NCBI RefSeq assembly: GCF_035594765.1
Contig: NC_085842.1
Coordinates: 162,763,036-162,827,035, forward strand
Length of the DNA stretch: 64,000 nucleotides
Direction of reading: 5' to 3'
From: Anolis carolinensis
Taxonomy: Eukaryota
The position numbers were made by a program. Every line of letters begins with the position of its first letter. Position 1 is the first letter of the stretch. Positions 7,681 through 13,600 of the stretch are shown piece after piece.

Positions 7681-10600
7681 GTGAGTAGATCAATAGGTAC
7701 CGCTCTGGCGGGAAGGTGACGGTGCTCTATGAAGTCACGCCAGCCACATGACCTTGGAGGTATCTGCGGACAACGCTGGCTCTTTGGCTTAAAAATGGAG
7801 ATGAGCACCAACCCCCAGAGTGGGACACGACTAGACTTAATGTTAGGGAAAAACCTTTACCTTTACCTTACAGAACAGGTACATTTTTTTCCCAACAATA
7901 CATGGAAGGCCACATTTCCCAACCTAGGTCTACAGGAATGTATAAAAACAACAGTGAGTATAAGCTCACAGGCTTGTGCTCATTTTTCTCACTATGGCAT
8001 ACACTGAGCAATACCAAACAATGAGCTTTTATAGTGTGCTTGCAAACAATCATTTTTCGGAGCCTAGAAAGCCTACCAGTCATATTGATTTGCATCTTGC
8101 TGCAGCCTCACATCAAACTGTTTTATAGCACTTCAAACTGTTCCCTGCAACATCTCAAATTAGTCCCTAAAAGCATGACTCCTTGACGGGAAGGGGGTAA
8201 GGAGATGAATGTCTACTAGATATGTATATGTGTTTACACACAGAGAGAGCTGACACACAGCAGTTTCATGTGTGTGTTTAATATATCGGTTCTTAAACAT
8301 AGTATGTGAAATGATGATTGACTGGTAATTTCCATGCCACTTAGCTGCTGAATCTGTTTAGAGCAGCACTATACAGTGCTGAACCCAAGCCTCAAAACAG
8401 GTTGAATACTTTAGGAAAATTCCTTAAATGTAAGTCTTGACCTCATCAGACGGCCGCCAGCATTACTCCACTTTGTAGAGGGGTGTGGGGAACCCGGCGC
8501 CCCACACCCTGTATTGCCCGGCTCCAGCTGAGAGTAATCAGATGGGGGGAAGCGTGAGTGCGTGGTTTCCCACATAGATTGCAATGGCAACATGGGAGCC
8601 CTCCCATGTTGCCCTGGTGATGGCATGCGCCAGCTCCACCCTCCTTTACCCATCATGTATTGGGATCCAGCCAGCTTGGTGGGTGACCAAGGCTAAATTG
8701 GCGCATGCCGCTGAATTTAGCCCCATATGAAGAGGTCATAATAAGTCTTGGCGGGGATTTGCAGTCCCGCTGACATGGGGCTCCTCAGTTACCACTGCAC
8801 AGAAGTAGTTCTGAACCTGGTAGAGGGGTGGCCAATTAAAGTTACATCTTTCTTTTCATTCTTTTCCTTTCTTTCACAACCTGCTATGGAAATTTGAATA
8901 AAAATAAAGATTAATGAAGGGAAATCAAGTCTGAGCAGACTCAGGCTGACACTCTGGTGGAGTACTATGCCAGCAGCTGCAATTTTTCAAGGCCACACAG
9001 CAGTGACATGAAAAGAGAAACAAAATCTTCTGAGCTGCTGTGAATTTTCCAGGCTGTATGGCCATGTTCCAGAAGCATTCTCTCCTGACATTTCACCCAC
9101 ATCTATGGCAGGCATCCTCAGAGGTTGTGAGATATATATTTATATAGTACAATATAGTAATTTATTGCCAGTATTGTGCTATGCTAATAATATAATGTAT
9201 GTAAATTTAATTTGTAAGATGCTCTGAGTCCCCTTCAGGGTGAGAAGGGCAGGATATAAATGTATTAAATCTATATATATAAAAGGATAAAGTTGTGGGC
9301 ACCGTGACTATAACAACACAACTATACGCCCCAGAACCACCAAACTTGACAACACGACGGAAAAGCCTTGCCTCCAGGTTCATACAACAAAAAAACACAA
9401 CAGGAACCTAAAAAGGGGTTTAAAAAACCCAAAAAAGGCAACAAACCATCTGCGCCTGCGCCAAAAGCGAGCCTGCGCGCGGACAGAACAACCCCCACCC
9501 CACCTCTCAACGGCTGCACCTGCCCCCGACGCTGCTGCTGCCATCTTGCCGAACAGCCCCGAGCCACCACGTGCCAGGAGTAGGAAAAAGGCAGCCCCCA
9601 CAGCTGGCCGCTCTGCCTAGGCGAGCCTGGGAATTCCATTTAGGCCTAAAGGGGCGGGTCTACTCACAGCAAGTCGAGCCGGTGGTGAGGTCCTGGACCT
9701 CGACGCCAGGGTAGCCCTCACACTGCCGGCAGCAACAGGCCTGCAGGGCGCTGTGCCAGCCCAACATGGGCTCAAGCCTCCCAGTTGCCTCTCCTGGCTC
9801 ACCCCTCACCACCCTGGGGGAGGGGGAAGCCAACTGGAGACCAAACTGGATAGTCAAACTCTGGGCCTCCTGGCCCTCTGGATGCGGGGGGGGGGGGCCG
9901 CGGGGCTCCTCGGTCACTTCTTCCCGCACCGCCGCCATCACCCGTCCTCCAAACCCCGAGAAGGAGCACGCCCCACACCACCCGGAGATTAAGAGCCCAC
10001 AGGCACACCAGCGAGTCGCTATTCCCGCAATCGCCACACTACTCCACAAACCCAAGTGGCCTCCCAAGTGACCGGGGGGGGGGGGAGTGAAAAAGGGCCA
10101 GGTGGCCGCCTGAGGCCTCAGAAAACACCGTGCTGAAAAGGGCGGCAGCTCGCACCCCTCTTCCTGCGCCGCCCCTCACCACCCTGGGGAGAGGGGGAGT
10201 CGGATGGAGACCAAACTGCCCACCCAAACTGTGGGCCTCCTGGCCCTTTTGATGGGAGGGGGCAAAAAGGACACACACCGCCTCGCTCACACTTCCCAAC
10301 ACAGCATTAGCCCAGCCAGGAATCACCCAGGCTTCAAACCTACAAGGCAGGAAACAATCAGGGTCAACTAATACCTCCCAACAAAGGATTCCACCAGGCA
10401 GGAATCAGCCAGGGCTTGAAGCTACAAGGCAGGAAACAATCAGGGCCAGCTAATACCTCCCAACAAAGGATTCCACCAGGCAGGAATCCGCCATGGTTTG
10501 AAGCTACAAGGCAGGAAACAATCAGGGCCAGCTAATACCTCCCAACAAAGGATTCCACCAGGCAGGAATCCGCCATGGTTTGAAGCTACAAGGCAGGAAA

Positions 10601-13600
10601 CAATCAGGGCCAGCTAATACCTCCCAACAAAGGATTCCACCAGGCAGGAATCAGCCAGGGCTTGAAGCTACAAGGCAGGAAACAATCAGGGTCAGCTAAT
10701 GCCTCCCAACAAAGGATTCCACCAGGCAGGAATCAGCCAGGGCTTGAAGCTACAAGGCAGGAAACAATCAGGGCCAGCTAATACCTCCCAACAAAGGATT
10801 CCACCAGGCAGGAATCAGCCAGGGCTTGAAGCTACAAGGCAGGAAACAATCAGGGCCAGCTAATACCTCCCAACAAAGGATTCCACCAGGCAGGAATCAG
10901 CCATGGTTTGAAGCTACAAGGCAGGAAACAATCAGAGCCAGCTAATACCTCCCAACAAAGGATTCCACCAGGCAGGAATCAGCCAGGGTTTCAACCTACA
11001 AGGCAGGAAACAATTAGGGCCAGCTAACACCTCCCAAAAAATGATTACCCCACTCAGGAAGCAGACCGCCTTTCAGATTACAAGGCATTAAAATCTAATC
11101 AAGGTGACTAATAACAGCATTCATACCTGCTGCAACAAGACTACTCATTGTATTCCAGCTCATCAAACAAGGATTCCCATATAAAGAAAACGGCCAGGCT
11201 TTCAGCCTGCAAGGCTATTCAGTGCTATTCCACCTGGCGAACAAAAGATTACGAAAAGCCACAGCAACGCGTGGCCGGGCAAAGCTAGTATTAAATAAAT
11301 ATACAGTATTTGAAACTATGCAAGGGGGGTTTATATATCTGTGGAAGGCCAGGGTGGGAGAAAGAACTCTTGTCTGTTGGGGCCAAGTGTGAATGTTGTA
11401 ATTAATCACCCTGATTAGTATTTAATGGCCTTGCAGCTTCAAGGCCTGGCTGATTCCTGCCTGAGGAATCCTTTGTTGGGAGGTGTTATCTAGCCCTGAT
11501 TGTTTATGTCTGGAATTCCCCTGTTTTCTGAGTGCTGTTCTTTATTTTCTGTCCTAATTTTAGAGTTTTTTATATTGGTAGCCAGATTTTGTTCATTTTC
11601 ATGGTTTCCTCCTTTCTGTTGAAATTGTCCACATGCTTGTGGATTTCAATAGCGTCTCTGTGTAGTCTGACATGGTGGTTGTTAGAGTGGTCCACCATTT
11701 CTGTGTTCTCAAATAATATACTGTGTCTAGGTTGGTTCATCAAGTGCTCTGCTATGGCTGACTTCTCTGGTTGAGTTAATCTGCAGTGCCTTTCATGTTC
11801 CTTGATTCGGGTTTGGGCAATGCTATGTTTGGTTGTCCCTATGTAGACTTGTCCAGAGCTGCATCGTATATGTTAGACTCCTGCAGAGGTGAGAGGATCC
11901 CTCTTGCCCTTTGCTGGAACGTAGGTAGTCTGTAGATAGTTTGTAGGTTGTGTTCCTTCATTAGCTTTCCTATGTCATCAGTGGTTCTCTTGGTGTATGG
12001 TAAGAACACCTTTCCTCTGGGTGGATCTTTGTCTTTACTCCTGTGGCTTGTTCTTGATCTTGCAGCTCTTCTGATGTCTGTGGTTTCCATTGGCCTGTAG
12101 AGCCCAGTTTAGGTGGTTCACCTTGGAGGAGATGGGGTTCACAGATTCTTTTTGCATGGTCTGCCAGGGCTTTAATTGTGCTTCTTTTTTTACTTGGGTG
12201 ATGGTTGGAGTTTTCTATTTGTGTGTGCAGGTTTTCTGTAAACTGTGTGGCCCAATTGTTGATTGGGTTTGCGGGTGAATAGGACATCTAGAAATTGCAG
12301 TTTTCCTTCGTTTTCTTTTTCCATGGTGAATTGGATATTTGGGTGGACTGGATGCTTTTGAGGTGGTCCAGGAACTTGTTTAGTTCTTCTTCCCCATGGC
12401 TCCAAATGGTGAAGGTGTCATCAACATATCTGAACCATATAATGGGCTTTTTGGTGCTGTTTCAGGAATCTCCTGACTCTAAGCAAACAGTCTCTATGGT
12501 GACTTCCTACCTTTGTGGCTACTGCACCTGGAGGTTTTTTCCTGCTACTGTCATGTGCACCAATGTGTGTTGCCAACAAGATTCTGTCCATAGATTCCAA
12601 GCCCACAAGACCCTACCCTGTCTTCAGAGAAACAGCAGAGAGGCAGCCACACAAGTGCACGCATTCATGATTTACTTTCTGTTTCTAGACCTTGTAAATG
12701 CATGCCAATATCTCATCACCATCCTGTTCTTCAGAGGGTTGATTGCTAAACTTACAGATTGATCTAAGATGAGACTGACTTGATATAGGAACTAATGAGG
12801 TTGAAAGACACAAATGTCTTCCTAAAGAAGATAAGGCAGGGGCCATGACTCATTCTTGGTATATCACTCTCCTTTCCCTTCTGATAGGAATGGATAGATT
12901 TGCAGAAACATGATGGGGCTCTGCAATAAAAGAAGCAAAGTGACAGGTGGACACAGGCCCCATGGAGCAGGGAAGAAAGCCAAAGAATTAGCATGGTAGT
13001 CATTAGCAGAATGACTGCACTTCTGTTGTTTTGAAAAATCTGGATCTCTTGGCTGGGTTCCTCCATCACATCAGCACAGCATAAACATCCACTGGCAGAG
13101 TTACATTATGCTTATATTACACAGACCCTATATTGAATACCAACATTGCCCAACATATGTGGACAAATAGTCAGTGTACTTGGCTGACATCCCATTGCAC
13201 AATTGCACTTGCTGCAGCACTTAAGGAAAACATGTAACAATTTGTTTGTAGGGCGTTTGTTTGTTTGTTTGTTTTGTTTTTTTGGTGTGGTCCTGTTTGT
13301 CTTCATAGTTGCTGTGCACTTCGTACTACTTTCCAAAACTTTAGTACGCATAGTTACTTGTATCAATAAAATGTCATGTGTATATGCCTAGCATCCCATT
13401 AGTGACCTATGTAGGTGTTCCTTGTATAACGCAACAAACCCTGTGTATGTCACTGAGAGGATGACAGGCATATAAAAATACTATAAATGTGTACATCATT
13501 TTGAAAAAAGCAGTCATCAAAATGTGATACACTTCTGGCTCAATTACTGTGCAGTTCCTATGCTTACAGCAGAGTTTTCCAAACTGTGTATCATGACACT

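What the first reader, a model, noticed from the sequence alone, without database searches (positions are those of the whole stretch)
9270..11288. Helitron carrying cargo, at the centre of a three-level nest (Penelope > L2-like tail > Helitron)
Seen: canonical rolling-circle ends (A|TC ... hairpin ... CTAG|T) enclose 2019 bp with no transposase. The interior is a mosaic of ~900 bp GC/CpG-rich DNA and a Penelope-derived array. The Penelope host resumes colinearly afterwards (compare the uninterrupted copy at 17910-18450). Established: Helitrons capture host fragments. Inference: this is a chimeric non-autonomous family spreading promoter-like DNA and retroelement-derived satellite.
Basis: partly seen in the sequence, partly recalled or inferred. 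Interest (0 to 1): 0.72.

Follow-up and report, generated by a model that had tools for sequence, protein, structure and literature searches.

The report
Cargo-carrying non-autonomous Helitron in anole DNA
A 2-kb insertion in lizard (anole-like) DNA looks like an ordinary gene-less Helitron transposon of a kind already described in anoles, carrying a piece of another retroelement and the start of a host gene.

Summary
Bases 9270-11288 (2019 bp) are a discrete insertion in an AT-rich repeat tail, which itself interrupts a Penelope-like element. The ends read A|TC...CTAG|T. An imperfect 18-nt hairpin lies 13 nt from the 3' end. There are no terminal inverted repeats and no transposase. The interior has four parts: a 170-bp A-rich leader, 851 bp of GC-rich DNA, an 82-bp x 9.4 array copied from the Penelope-like 3' UTR, and about 185 bp of decayed units.

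New here: the GC-rich cargo is, on the minus strand, the 5' end of a calponin-homology-domain gene. It has an exon-1-like ORF followed by a GTGAGT donor. It is 85% identical to the first 88 residues of an Anolis carolinensis gene model.

Best reading (about 0.65): a non-autonomous Helitron. It is probably the anole type already described as about 2,000 bp, more than 1,000 copies, with Poseidon fragments (PMC3014272).

Main caveat: a 9-bp direct repeat flanks the insert, so a duplication-making retro-composite is not excluded (about 0.2). No lizard genome or repeat library was available, so copy number and shared ends are untested. Ordinary; low interest.

The parts
9030..9131 (-). Host Penelope-like element, the part downstream (in element sense) of the insertion
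   Evidence: 96% to 17937-18038. Further copies lie at 18998-19103, 19197-19092, 37774-37864 and 60378-60468.
9132..9269 (+). AT-rich LINE/SINE-type tail repeat, left part (second nest level); family not named
   Evidence: 9135-9270 matches 56863-57005 at 82.5%. A 26-nt core motif occurs 2 times in the window against 0 expected.
9262..9270 (.). Left copy of the 9-bp direct repeat GTATTAAAT. Its last T is also the T of the 5' TC.
   Evidence: String identity with 11288-11296.
9270..9439 (+). 5' end (TC) and A-rich leader of the inserted element
   Evidence: A 44%, T 16%. No match elsewhere in the window.
9440..10290 (-). GC-rich cargo: 5' region of a CH-domain gene (promoter/5'UTR-like, exon 1-like, start of intron 1), antisense to the element
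   Evidence: GC 65.3%, CpG o/e 0.51. Protein evidence.
9668..9938 (-). Exon-1-like open frame. 9938->9681 aligns to residues 1-88 of P0001. The frame-shifted end 9687->9667 reads HHRLDLL.
   Evidence: 75 of 88 identical by BLASTP; tblastn 86.4%; translation. Relative to P0001, about 46 nt are missing in the window copy (inferred).
9662..9667 (-). GTGAGT, splice-donor-like hexamer directly after the exon-like frame
   Evidence: Read. P0001 leaves colinearity with the window at this point.
10157..10305 (.). Degenerate internal duplicate of 9788-9932 inside the cargo
   Evidence: Local alignment score 126, against a maximum of 43 in 100 shuffles. 80% by BLAST.
10294..11064 (+). 82-bp x 9.4 minisatellite derived from the Penelope-like 3' UTR, in Penelope sense orientation
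   Evidence: TRF. Units are 86-91% to the reverse complement of 11428-11505.
11065..11250 (+). Further, more decayed Penelope-like 3' UTR sequence and one more degenerate unit
   Evidence: 11004-11137 matches 18243-18111 at 79%. Alignments reach 11250, with 0 of 300 shuffles as good.
11258..11275 (+). Imperfect 18-nt palindrome (7 pairs, one bulge), 13 nt from the 3' end
   Evidence: -5.8 kcal/mol. Rank 11 of 459 CTRR|T sites, but 115 of 200 shuffles fold as well.
11285..11288 (+). 3' terminal CTAG, followed by T
11288..11296 (.). Right copy of GTATTAAAT. Its G is also the G of CTAG.
11289..11305 (+). Remainder of the AT-rich tail repeat
   Evidence: Read against 57006-57045. The host resumes at about 11306-11309.
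11309..12461 (-). Host Penelope-like element, upstream part. It holds a GIY-YIG-like ORF (11570-11872) and an ORF with a YVDD motif (12288-12461).
   Evidence: 88.8% to 18044-18451. ESM Atlas first hit is a GIY-YIG cluster, score 0.96, 210 of 256 features. YVDD was read by eye. Pfam found nothing in 7 ORFs.

Best explanation
9270-11288 is one copy of a non-autonomous Helitron. It would be mobilised in trans by the Rep-helicase of an autonomous Helitron in the same genome.

Inferred mechanism, taken from the Helraiser work (PMC4778049, passages read): the transposase nicks the plus strand at A|TC and unwinds 5'->3'. It pauses at the subterminal hairpin and cuts after CTAG. The strand is circularised and pasted between an A and a T of an AT-rich target. 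Here that target is the tail of an older repeat lying inside a Penelope-like element.

The element keeps only about 170 bp of leader and about 40 bp of 3' end of its own. The rest is captured DNA of two kinds.
(a) About 850 bp of a CpG-rich gene start. It comprises promoter/5'UTR-like DNA, exon 1 encoding the beginning of a calponin-homology domain, and a splice donor. It sits antisense to the element.
(b) A piece of Penelope-like 3' UTR, of which 82 bp later expanded into a 9.4-unit minisatellite.

Copies of such an element can seed new first exons. One related copy in A. carolinensis provides exon 1 of the gene model LOC134292393.

Shown: the boundaries, the nest, the composition, the origin of the array, the gene-start nature of the cargo, and the absence of a transposase. 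Inferred: rolling-circle mobilisation, membership of the published anole family, and any promoter activity.
For: Ends fall at independently defined breakpoints. The alignment to the second tail copy stops at 9270, and the host resumes at 11309. At those points the sequence reads A|TC and CTAG|T. CTAGT occurs 35 times and ATC 906 times on the plus strand of the 64 kb, so the pair at fixed positions is unlikely by chance.

Hairpin position: 13 nt from the end, rank 11 of 459 CTRR|T sites and 2 of 75 CTAG|T sites. This compares with Helraiser's 19-bp palindrome 11 nt from the end (PMC4778049).

No terminal inverted repeat appears among the 25 longest of 51 inverted pairs. No ORF exceeds 171 aa and 0 of 8 ORFs reach a Pfam cut-off. 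The target is AT-rich: 29 of 30 flanking bases are A or T.

Literature (PMC3014272, passages): A. carolinensis has six non-autonomous Helitron families. [quoted passage not shown]

The nearest protein to the cargo is from A. carolinensis: 1 hit of 277 candidates, E = 1.1e-39.

Capture of gene 5' ends with a promoter and splice donor is documented for bat HelibatN3 (PMC4778049). A bias toward 5' exons and Helitron-borne minisatellites are documented in Xenopus (PMC12001565).
Against: A 9-bp direct repeat (GTATTAAAT) flanks the insert. Under the Helitron reading, 7 of those bases must have been a pre-existing tandem 7-mer with the insertion exactly between the two copies. In this window such a 7-mer tandem occurs at 1 of 374 A|T sites in contexts of at least 80% AT, and at 1 of 4957 overall. 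Removing one repeat copy also gives a tail that reads more like the other copy's tail (by eye).

The hairpin is not more stable than shuffles: 115 of 200 fold at least as well, z = 0.32.

Penelope-like sequence runs significantly to 11250. A 14-of-16 match to the Penelope-like 3' end covers 11253-11268: 1 of 500 shuffles against one copy, but 439, 193 and 112 of 500 against three others. So little or none of the 3' end is demonstrably Helitron-specific.

The whole plus strand is A-rich and T-poor (A 30%, T 14.5%), as retroelement sense strands often are. That comparison is a recollection; no call tested it.

The gene fragment is antisense to the element, whereas PMC12001565 reports a bias toward the same orientation.

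No SINE fragment was recognised (only repeats within the window could be compared).

Neither end recurs in the window. No consensus could be compared.
Confidence: 0.65

Rival explanations
1. A composite retrotransposon that makes target-site duplications: 9271-11287 flanked by the 9-bp duplication GTATTAAAT. There are two variants.
(a) A Penelope-derived non-autonomous element read on the plus strand. Its 3' half is Penelope-like 3' UTR in sense orientation, and it would be mobilised by the Penelope-like RT/GIY-YIG enzyme.
(b) An SVA-like composite read on the minus strand: Penelope-like piece, then VNTR, then GC-rich gene piece, then a (TA)5 tail. It would be mobilised by a LINE.
In both variants the TC/CTAG ends arise by chance from the element's own C...CTA abutting the T and G of the duplication.
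For: An exact 9-bp flanking repeat is present. A pre-existing tandem 7-mer, which the Helitron reading needs, is rare: 1 of 374 AT-rich A|T sites.

Penelope-like similarity, in sense orientation, reaches 11250 and possibly 11268. The plus strand is A-rich and T-poor throughout. The hairpin is no better than shuffles.

PMC8557442 (passages) reports three relevant things: non-autonomous Penelope-like elements that resemble autonomous ones at their 3' ends; retention of introns and trans-mobilisation of intron-containing host genes; and (TA)n target bias in some clades.
Against: The roughly 100-nt terminal block present in every Penelope-like copy of the window (9030-9131 and its 5 matches) is absent from the element. 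No hammerhead or pseudo-LTR is present. There is no poly(A). The minus-strand 3' end matches no other repeat in the window.

The chance that a duplication-flanked insert reads A|TC...CTAG|T is of the order of 1e-3 or less. This is an inference from the motif counts.

No such composite family is reported for anoles in the passages read, whereas a Helitron of this size and make-up is.
Confidence: 0.2
2. Not a single mobile element. Instead, a patchwork built in place by several events, or by repair of a break with filler DNA copied from a gene start and from a nearby Penelope-like element. Local expansion of the 82-bp unit would have followed. On this reading the Helitron-like ends are coincidental.
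For: The array source (a Penelope-like 3' UTR) lies only about 140 bp away in inverted orientation (11428-11505). The cargo carries its own internal duplication. No second copy of either end exists in the window.
Against: The array units are not closer to the adjacent host than to other copies in a way that marks it as the donor: 86-91% to the host against 83-86% to 18164-18243. A second copy of the cargo exists elsewhere, in A. carolinensis, as exon 1 of a gene model whose other 117 residues are absent from the window. That shows the cargo has been copied around. The clean breakpoints carrying TC/CTAG would need a further coincidence.
Confidence: 0.1

Closest known systems
Helitron-2N3_AC (and the similar-sized Helitron-2N5_AC / 2N2_AC), non-autonomous Helitrons of Anolis carolinensis (Novick et al. 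2010, PMC3014272; Table 2 and the Helitron section read as passages)
   Same: Length is about 2,000 bp (here 2019). It is non-autonomous and uses an A/T target. It has a composite structure with fragments of a Penelope-like (Poseidon) element. The host genome is anole-like.
   Different: The paper mentions a SINE fragment, and none was recognised here. In the passages read, the paper does not mention a captured gene start or an 82-bp array. The cargo copy in P0001 is only about 85-90% identical at protein level and differs by an indel of about 46 nt. The published within-family divergence is about 2%.
HelibatN3 of Myotis lucifugus (NUBPL promoter, part of the coding region and a splice donor between Helitron ends; PMC4778049 passages; PMC2997563 passages)
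   Same: It is a non-autonomous Helitron carrying a host gene's 5' end with a splice donor. Copies can impose new first exons on neighbouring DNA. Here one related copy forms exon 1 of an A. carolinensis gene model.
   Different: The host, the captured gene (a CH-domain gene of MICAL / MICAL-like / EHBP1 type) and the orientation (antisense to the element) all differ. Promoter activity is untested here. The exon in the window copy is damaged by a deletion.
Heli2Xen / Heli1Xen1 of Xenopus (PMC12001565 passages)
   Same: Helitrons there are associated with minisatellite arrays, and capture is skewed toward the 5' exons of genes.
   Different: The Xenopus arrays are of Helitron origin (166-bp units). 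Here the unit is retroelement-derived.
SVA-type composite retrotransposons and non-autonomous Penelope-like elements (PMC8557442 passages; SVA architecture is recalled, no call)
   Same: The modular build is similar: a retroelement piece, a VNTR and a GC-rich piece, with a flanking direct repeat.
   Different: There is no poly(A), no Penelope-like terminal block and no hammerhead. The ends read TC/CTAG at an A|T site.

Membership tests
Helitron (non-autonomous) | 5' terminus TC | tested here: met
   9270-9271 = TC. The independent alignment to the tail copy ends at 9270.
Helitron (non-autonomous) | 3' terminus CTRR | tested here: met
   11285-11288 = CTAG.
Helitron (non-autonomous) | Insertion between host A and T without target-site duplication | tested here: inconclusive
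   A at 9269 and T at 11289. However, GTATTAAAT flanks both sides. A chance tandem 7-mer at an AT-rich A|T site occurs at 1 of 374.
Helitron (non-autonomous) | Subterminal hairpin about 10-12 nt upstream of the 3' end | tested here: inconclusive
   7-pair imperfect hairpin 13 nt from the end. It ranks 11 of 459 CTRR|T sites, but 115 of 200 shuffles fold as well.
Helitron (non-autonomous) | No terminal inverted repeats | tested here: met
   None of the 25 longest of 51 inverted pairs joins the two ends.
Helitron (non-autonomous) | No Rep/helicase ORF (non-autonomous) | tested here: met
   Longest ORF is 171 aa. 0 of 8 ORFs reach a Pfam cut-off.
Helitron (non-autonomous) | Termini shared with other copies and with an autonomous RepHel element | not testable with these tools
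   No lizard genome, Dfam or Repbase was available. The ends do not recur in the window. The termini strings occur in 0 papers.
Helitron-2N3_AC (Anolis carolinensis) | Length about 2,000 bp with Poseidon (Penelope-like) fragments | tested here: met
   2019 bp; 10294-11250 is derived from a Penelope-like 3' UTR. The family description is from PMC3014272.
Helitron-2N3_AC (Anolis carolinensis) | Contains a SINE fragment | tested here: inconclusive
   9271-10290 matches no other repeat of the window: only one 31-nt hit, at E = 0.52. Only repeats present in these 64 kb could be compared.
Helitron-2N3_AC (Anolis carolinensis) | Sequence identity to the family consensus | not testable with these tools
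   The consensus is not in the main text.
Penelope-like non-autonomous retroelement | 3' end identical to that of an autonomous Penelope-like element; pseudo-LTR / hammerhead | tested here: not met
   The terminal roughly 100-nt block of the window's Penelope-like copies is absent. Only a 14-of-16 match at 11253-11268 was found, significant against 1 of 4 copies. Rfam found no hammerhead.
Penelope-like non-autonomous retroelement | Target-site duplication | tested here: inconclusive
   A 9-bp flanking repeat is present, but it lies in a low-complexity AT-rich tail.
LINE-mobilised composite (SVA-like) | 3' poly(A) or LINE-type tail plus target-site duplication | tested here: inconclusive
   On the minus strand the element ends in (TA)5 next to the 9-bp repeat. 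There is no poly(A) and no match to another repeat's 3' end in the window.

The most novel reading that the evidence does not exclude
The Helitron-like ends are a coincidence. On this reading the element is a previously undescribed composite retrotransposon of lizards: a Penelope-like 3' UTR piece, an 82-bp VNTR and a captured CpG-island promoter with first exon and splice donor. It would be flanked by a 9-bp target-site duplication and mobilised by a Penelope-like or LINE enzyme. That would make it an SVA-like element that spreads a host promoter.
Probability: 0.15. Interest if true: 0.5.

Novelty: already known. Interest (0 to 1): 0.2.

Why it matters
It matters little as a discovery. Non-autonomous Helitrons of this size, abundance and composite make-up are already catalogued for the green anole. 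Promoter/first-exon capture by Helitrons is established in bats, maize and frogs.

The useful by-products are annotation-level:
- The GC-rich 'promoter-like' block can now be named as the 5' end of a calponin-homology-domain gene.
- At least one anole gene model (LOC134292393) seems to owe its first coding exon to a copy of this cargo. That would be one more vertebrate example of transposon-driven exon shuffling.
- The 9-bp flanking repeat is a reminder that TC/CTAG ends alone do not prove a Helitron.

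Tried and rejected
- Rfam, whole window at gathering thresholds and 8500-19500 at E <= 1. No hammerhead ribozyme was found in the Penelope-like copies. The only hits are sub-threshold miRNA-family matches, caused by an inverted pair of Penelope-like ends at 18995-19200 and by a spot at 16446-16605.
- Pfam on 7 host ORFs. No RT or GIY-YIG call. The Penelope-like identity of the host therefore rests on the ESM Atlas lead and on a YVDD motif read by eye.
- Parent gene of the cargo. Two further word-based protein searches found none of 26 candidates among longer proteins and only P0001 itself among 4 candidates. 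The parent gene could not be named more closely than 'CH domain of MICAL / MICAL-like / EHBP1 type'.
- Representative search: 4 proteins at E <= 0.001.
  - P0002 and P0003 are long repeat proteins matched in 9 and 6 short stretches. I take these as spurious.
  - P0004 is unnamed (113 aa, 42% identity) and ends like the start of a CH domain. It is unnamed and could be mammalian, so it was read once and used in no further call.
Cluster sizes and names are therefore unknown.
The consensus sequences or end alignments of PMC3014272 and PMC2997563, if they are there, could not be seen. They bear directly on family membership.
- Full-text search for the two terminal strings: 0 papers.
- Search for 'Helitron' plus 'MICAL': 22 papers, 10 listed, none about lizards by title.
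- Family names 'Helitron-2N3' and 'Helitron-2_AC' occur only in PMC3014272.
- A by-eye impression that the last 38 nt align to the 82-bp unit was not supported: 87 of 300 shuffles score as well.
- Similarity of the 5' leader to Penelope-like ends was not significant: 82, 34, 297 and 55 of 500 shuffles against the four copies.
- I recall that the first roughly 16 nt and the last roughly 11 nt resemble the published ends of the bat Helibat1/Helraiser element. Those letters are not in the main texts I searched. This is a recollection, not a test.
- The bacterial/archaeal genome-contig scan was not used, since it could not hold lizard DNA.

Full report
What is there

The window is vertebrate, lizard-like DNA and not human. 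It is rich in Penelope-like and LINE/SINE repeats, and the closest protein to the region is from Anolis carolinensis. It holds one run of N at 61911-61041's neighbourhood, precisely 61911-62041, which was left alone.

Self-BLAST confirms the three-level nest.
- A Penelope-like element is colinear with an uninterrupted copy: 9030-9131 matches 17937-18038 at 96%, and 11309-11713 matches 18044-18451 at 88.8%. Only 5 bases separate these blocks in the uninterrupted copy. Here 2177 bp (9132-11308) lie between them.
- Within the insert, 9135-9270 is an AT-rich repeat tail that recurs at 56863-57005 (82.5%). Its 26-nt core motif occurs twice in the window. That alignment ends exactly at 9270, and the tail's last 17 nt follow at 11289-11305.
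- The innermost insert is 9270-11288, 2019 bp.

The host is on the minus strand.
- An ORF at 11570-11872 resembles eukaryotic GIY-YIG proteins: ESM Atlas score 0.96, 210 of 256 features.
- An ORF at 12288-12461 carries YVDD (read by eye).
- Pfam and Rfam gave no support, so 'Penelope-like' is likely but not formally shown.
- 'L2-like' for the tail was not tested.

Anatomy of the insert

The ends read A|TC and CTAG|T.

The element has five parts, 5' to 3'.
1. A 170-bp A-rich leader, 9270-9439.
2. 851 bp of GC-rich DNA, 9440-10290. GC is 65.3%. CpG o/e is 0.51 against 0.24 for the window. It contains an internal degenerate duplication, 9788-9932 with 10157-10305.
3. An 82-bp x 9.4 array at 10294-11064, 94% matches. 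The units are the reverse complement of host 11428-11505, so they are Penelope 3' UTR in sense orientation.
4. About 185 bp of more decayed Penelope-like sequence, reaching 11250 (0 of 300 shuffles as good).
5. A final 38 nt holding an imperfect 18-nt hairpin (11258-11275) 13 nt from the end.

No ORF exceeds 171 aa, and none of 8 ORFs reaches a Pfam cut-off. No terminal inverted repeats were found.

The cargo is a gene start

The minus-strand frame 9938->9681 is 85% identical (75 of 88 residues) to the N-terminus of P0001. P0001 is 'uncharacterized protein LOC134292393 [Anolis carolinensis]'.

Residues 62-110 of P0001 match the first half of calponin-homology domains:
- PDB: a CH-domain protein at 1.1e-8, MICAL-3 at 3.6e-8, EHBP1 at 1.8e-6, MICAL-2 at 2.1e-6.
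- Pfam CH, below cut-off at 17.8 of 26 bits.
- ESM Atlas rows include MICAL-like 1, EHBP1, the MICALs and smoothelin.

Relative to P0001 the window copy lacks about 46 nt. After that gap the frame-shifted stretch 9687->9667 still reads HHRLDLL, the last residues of the match. It is followed directly by GTGAGT at 9667->9662.

Beyond that point P0001 is not in the window and no longer resembles a CH domain. I infer that P0001 is a chimeric model whose first exon comes from another copy of this cargo, and not from the parent gene. The parent could not be named.

The exon-like stretch was searched on its own.

Helitron or not

For the Helitron reading:
- The TC and CTAG ends sit exactly at breakpoints defined independently by repeat alignments.
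- The hairpin is in the right place and is unusual among CTRR|T sites: rank 11 of 459.
- There are no TIRs and no transposase, and the target is AT-rich.
- The literature fits closely. Novick et al. 2010 (PMC3014272, passages) list anole non-autonomous Helitrons of 1,930-2,000 bp with 608 to more than 1,000 copies. They single out Helitron-2N3_AC as a composite with Poseidon and SINE fragments.
- Thomas et al. 2010 (PMC2997563, passages) count 667 HeligloriaB copies in the anole.
- The mechanism is taken from the Helraiser papers (PMC4778049, PMC5876387; passages).

Against the Helitron reading:
- GTATTAAAT flanks the insert on both sides. The Helitron reading then requires a pre-existing tandem 7-mer split exactly by the insertion. 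That is seen at 1 of 374 AT-rich A|T sites in the window.
- The hairpin is no better than shuffles: 115 of 200 fold at least as well.
- Penelope-like sequence reaches to within 38 nt of the end, and perhaps to within 20 nt.
- The plus strand is uniformly A-rich and T-poor.
- The gene piece is antisense to the element (compare PMC12001565).

By my rough reckoning, which is inference, the junction evidence alone is about even between the two readings. The published anole family tips it, as does the lack of any Penelope-like terminal block, poly(A) or hammerhead. My estimates are: Helitron about 0.65, duplication-making retro-composite about 0.2, in-place patchwork about 0.1.

What could not be done

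No lizard genome, Dfam or Repbase was at hand. As a result, copy number, shared ends and identity to Helitron-2N3_AC are untested. Neither terminus recurs in the window or in any searched paper.

Verdict

The family claim is untested and the novelty claim is not supported. This is an ordinary, probably already catalogued element, of low interest.

Noticed in passing
window 18995-19200: Two copies of the roughly 100-nt Penelope-like terminal block lie head to head (18998-19103 and 19197-19092). They form a long hairpin that draws sub-threshold matches to several miRNA families in Rfam: best 49.4 bits against a gathering score of 113. This fits the inverted 5'-truncated arrangements described for Penelope-like elements (PMC8557442).
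   Followed up: partly
window 9030-9131 and its copies (17937, 18998, 37774, 60378): By eye, the minus strand of this conserved block carries CTGAGGA ... GAAA(C/T)GTC, reminiscent of the hammerhead ribozymes reported in Penelope-like pseudo-LTRs. Rfam reported no hammerhead at gathering thresholds or at E <= 1.
   Followed up: partly
window 7050-7195 and 7679-7878: Two adjacent blocks each match the same 5-6 other places in the window (for example 58149-57824, 54869-54529, 39486-39162, 23734-24057, 37376-37690). There the two blocks are contiguous. So a SINE-like repeat here seems to be split by a roughly 480-bp insertion at 7196-7678, which would be another nest.
   Followed up: no
window 38542-39251: This is the only other GC-rich, CpG-rich spot in the window (200-nt windows at 38551 and 39251 pass GC >= 55% and CpG o/e >= 0.6). 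It has open frames of 196 and 189 aa on opposite strands with no Pfam match. It may be a real CpG island or first exon.
   Followed up: no
window 22255-23214 (minus): The longest open frame of the window (319 aa) has a sub-threshold reverse-transcriptase match: RVT_1, 24.4 bits against a cut-off of 29.6. This is a decayed retroelement.
   Followed up: no
window 61911-62041: A run of 131 N. It was left as is.
   Followed up: no
P0001 (NCBI LOC134292393, Anolis carolinensis), not in the window beyond residue 88: After the exon shared with the cargo, this gene model continues with 117 residues. They resemble nothing in PDB, and its Atlas model is poor (pTM 0.28). It looks like a transposon-seeded chimeric or spurious gene model.
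   Followed up: partly
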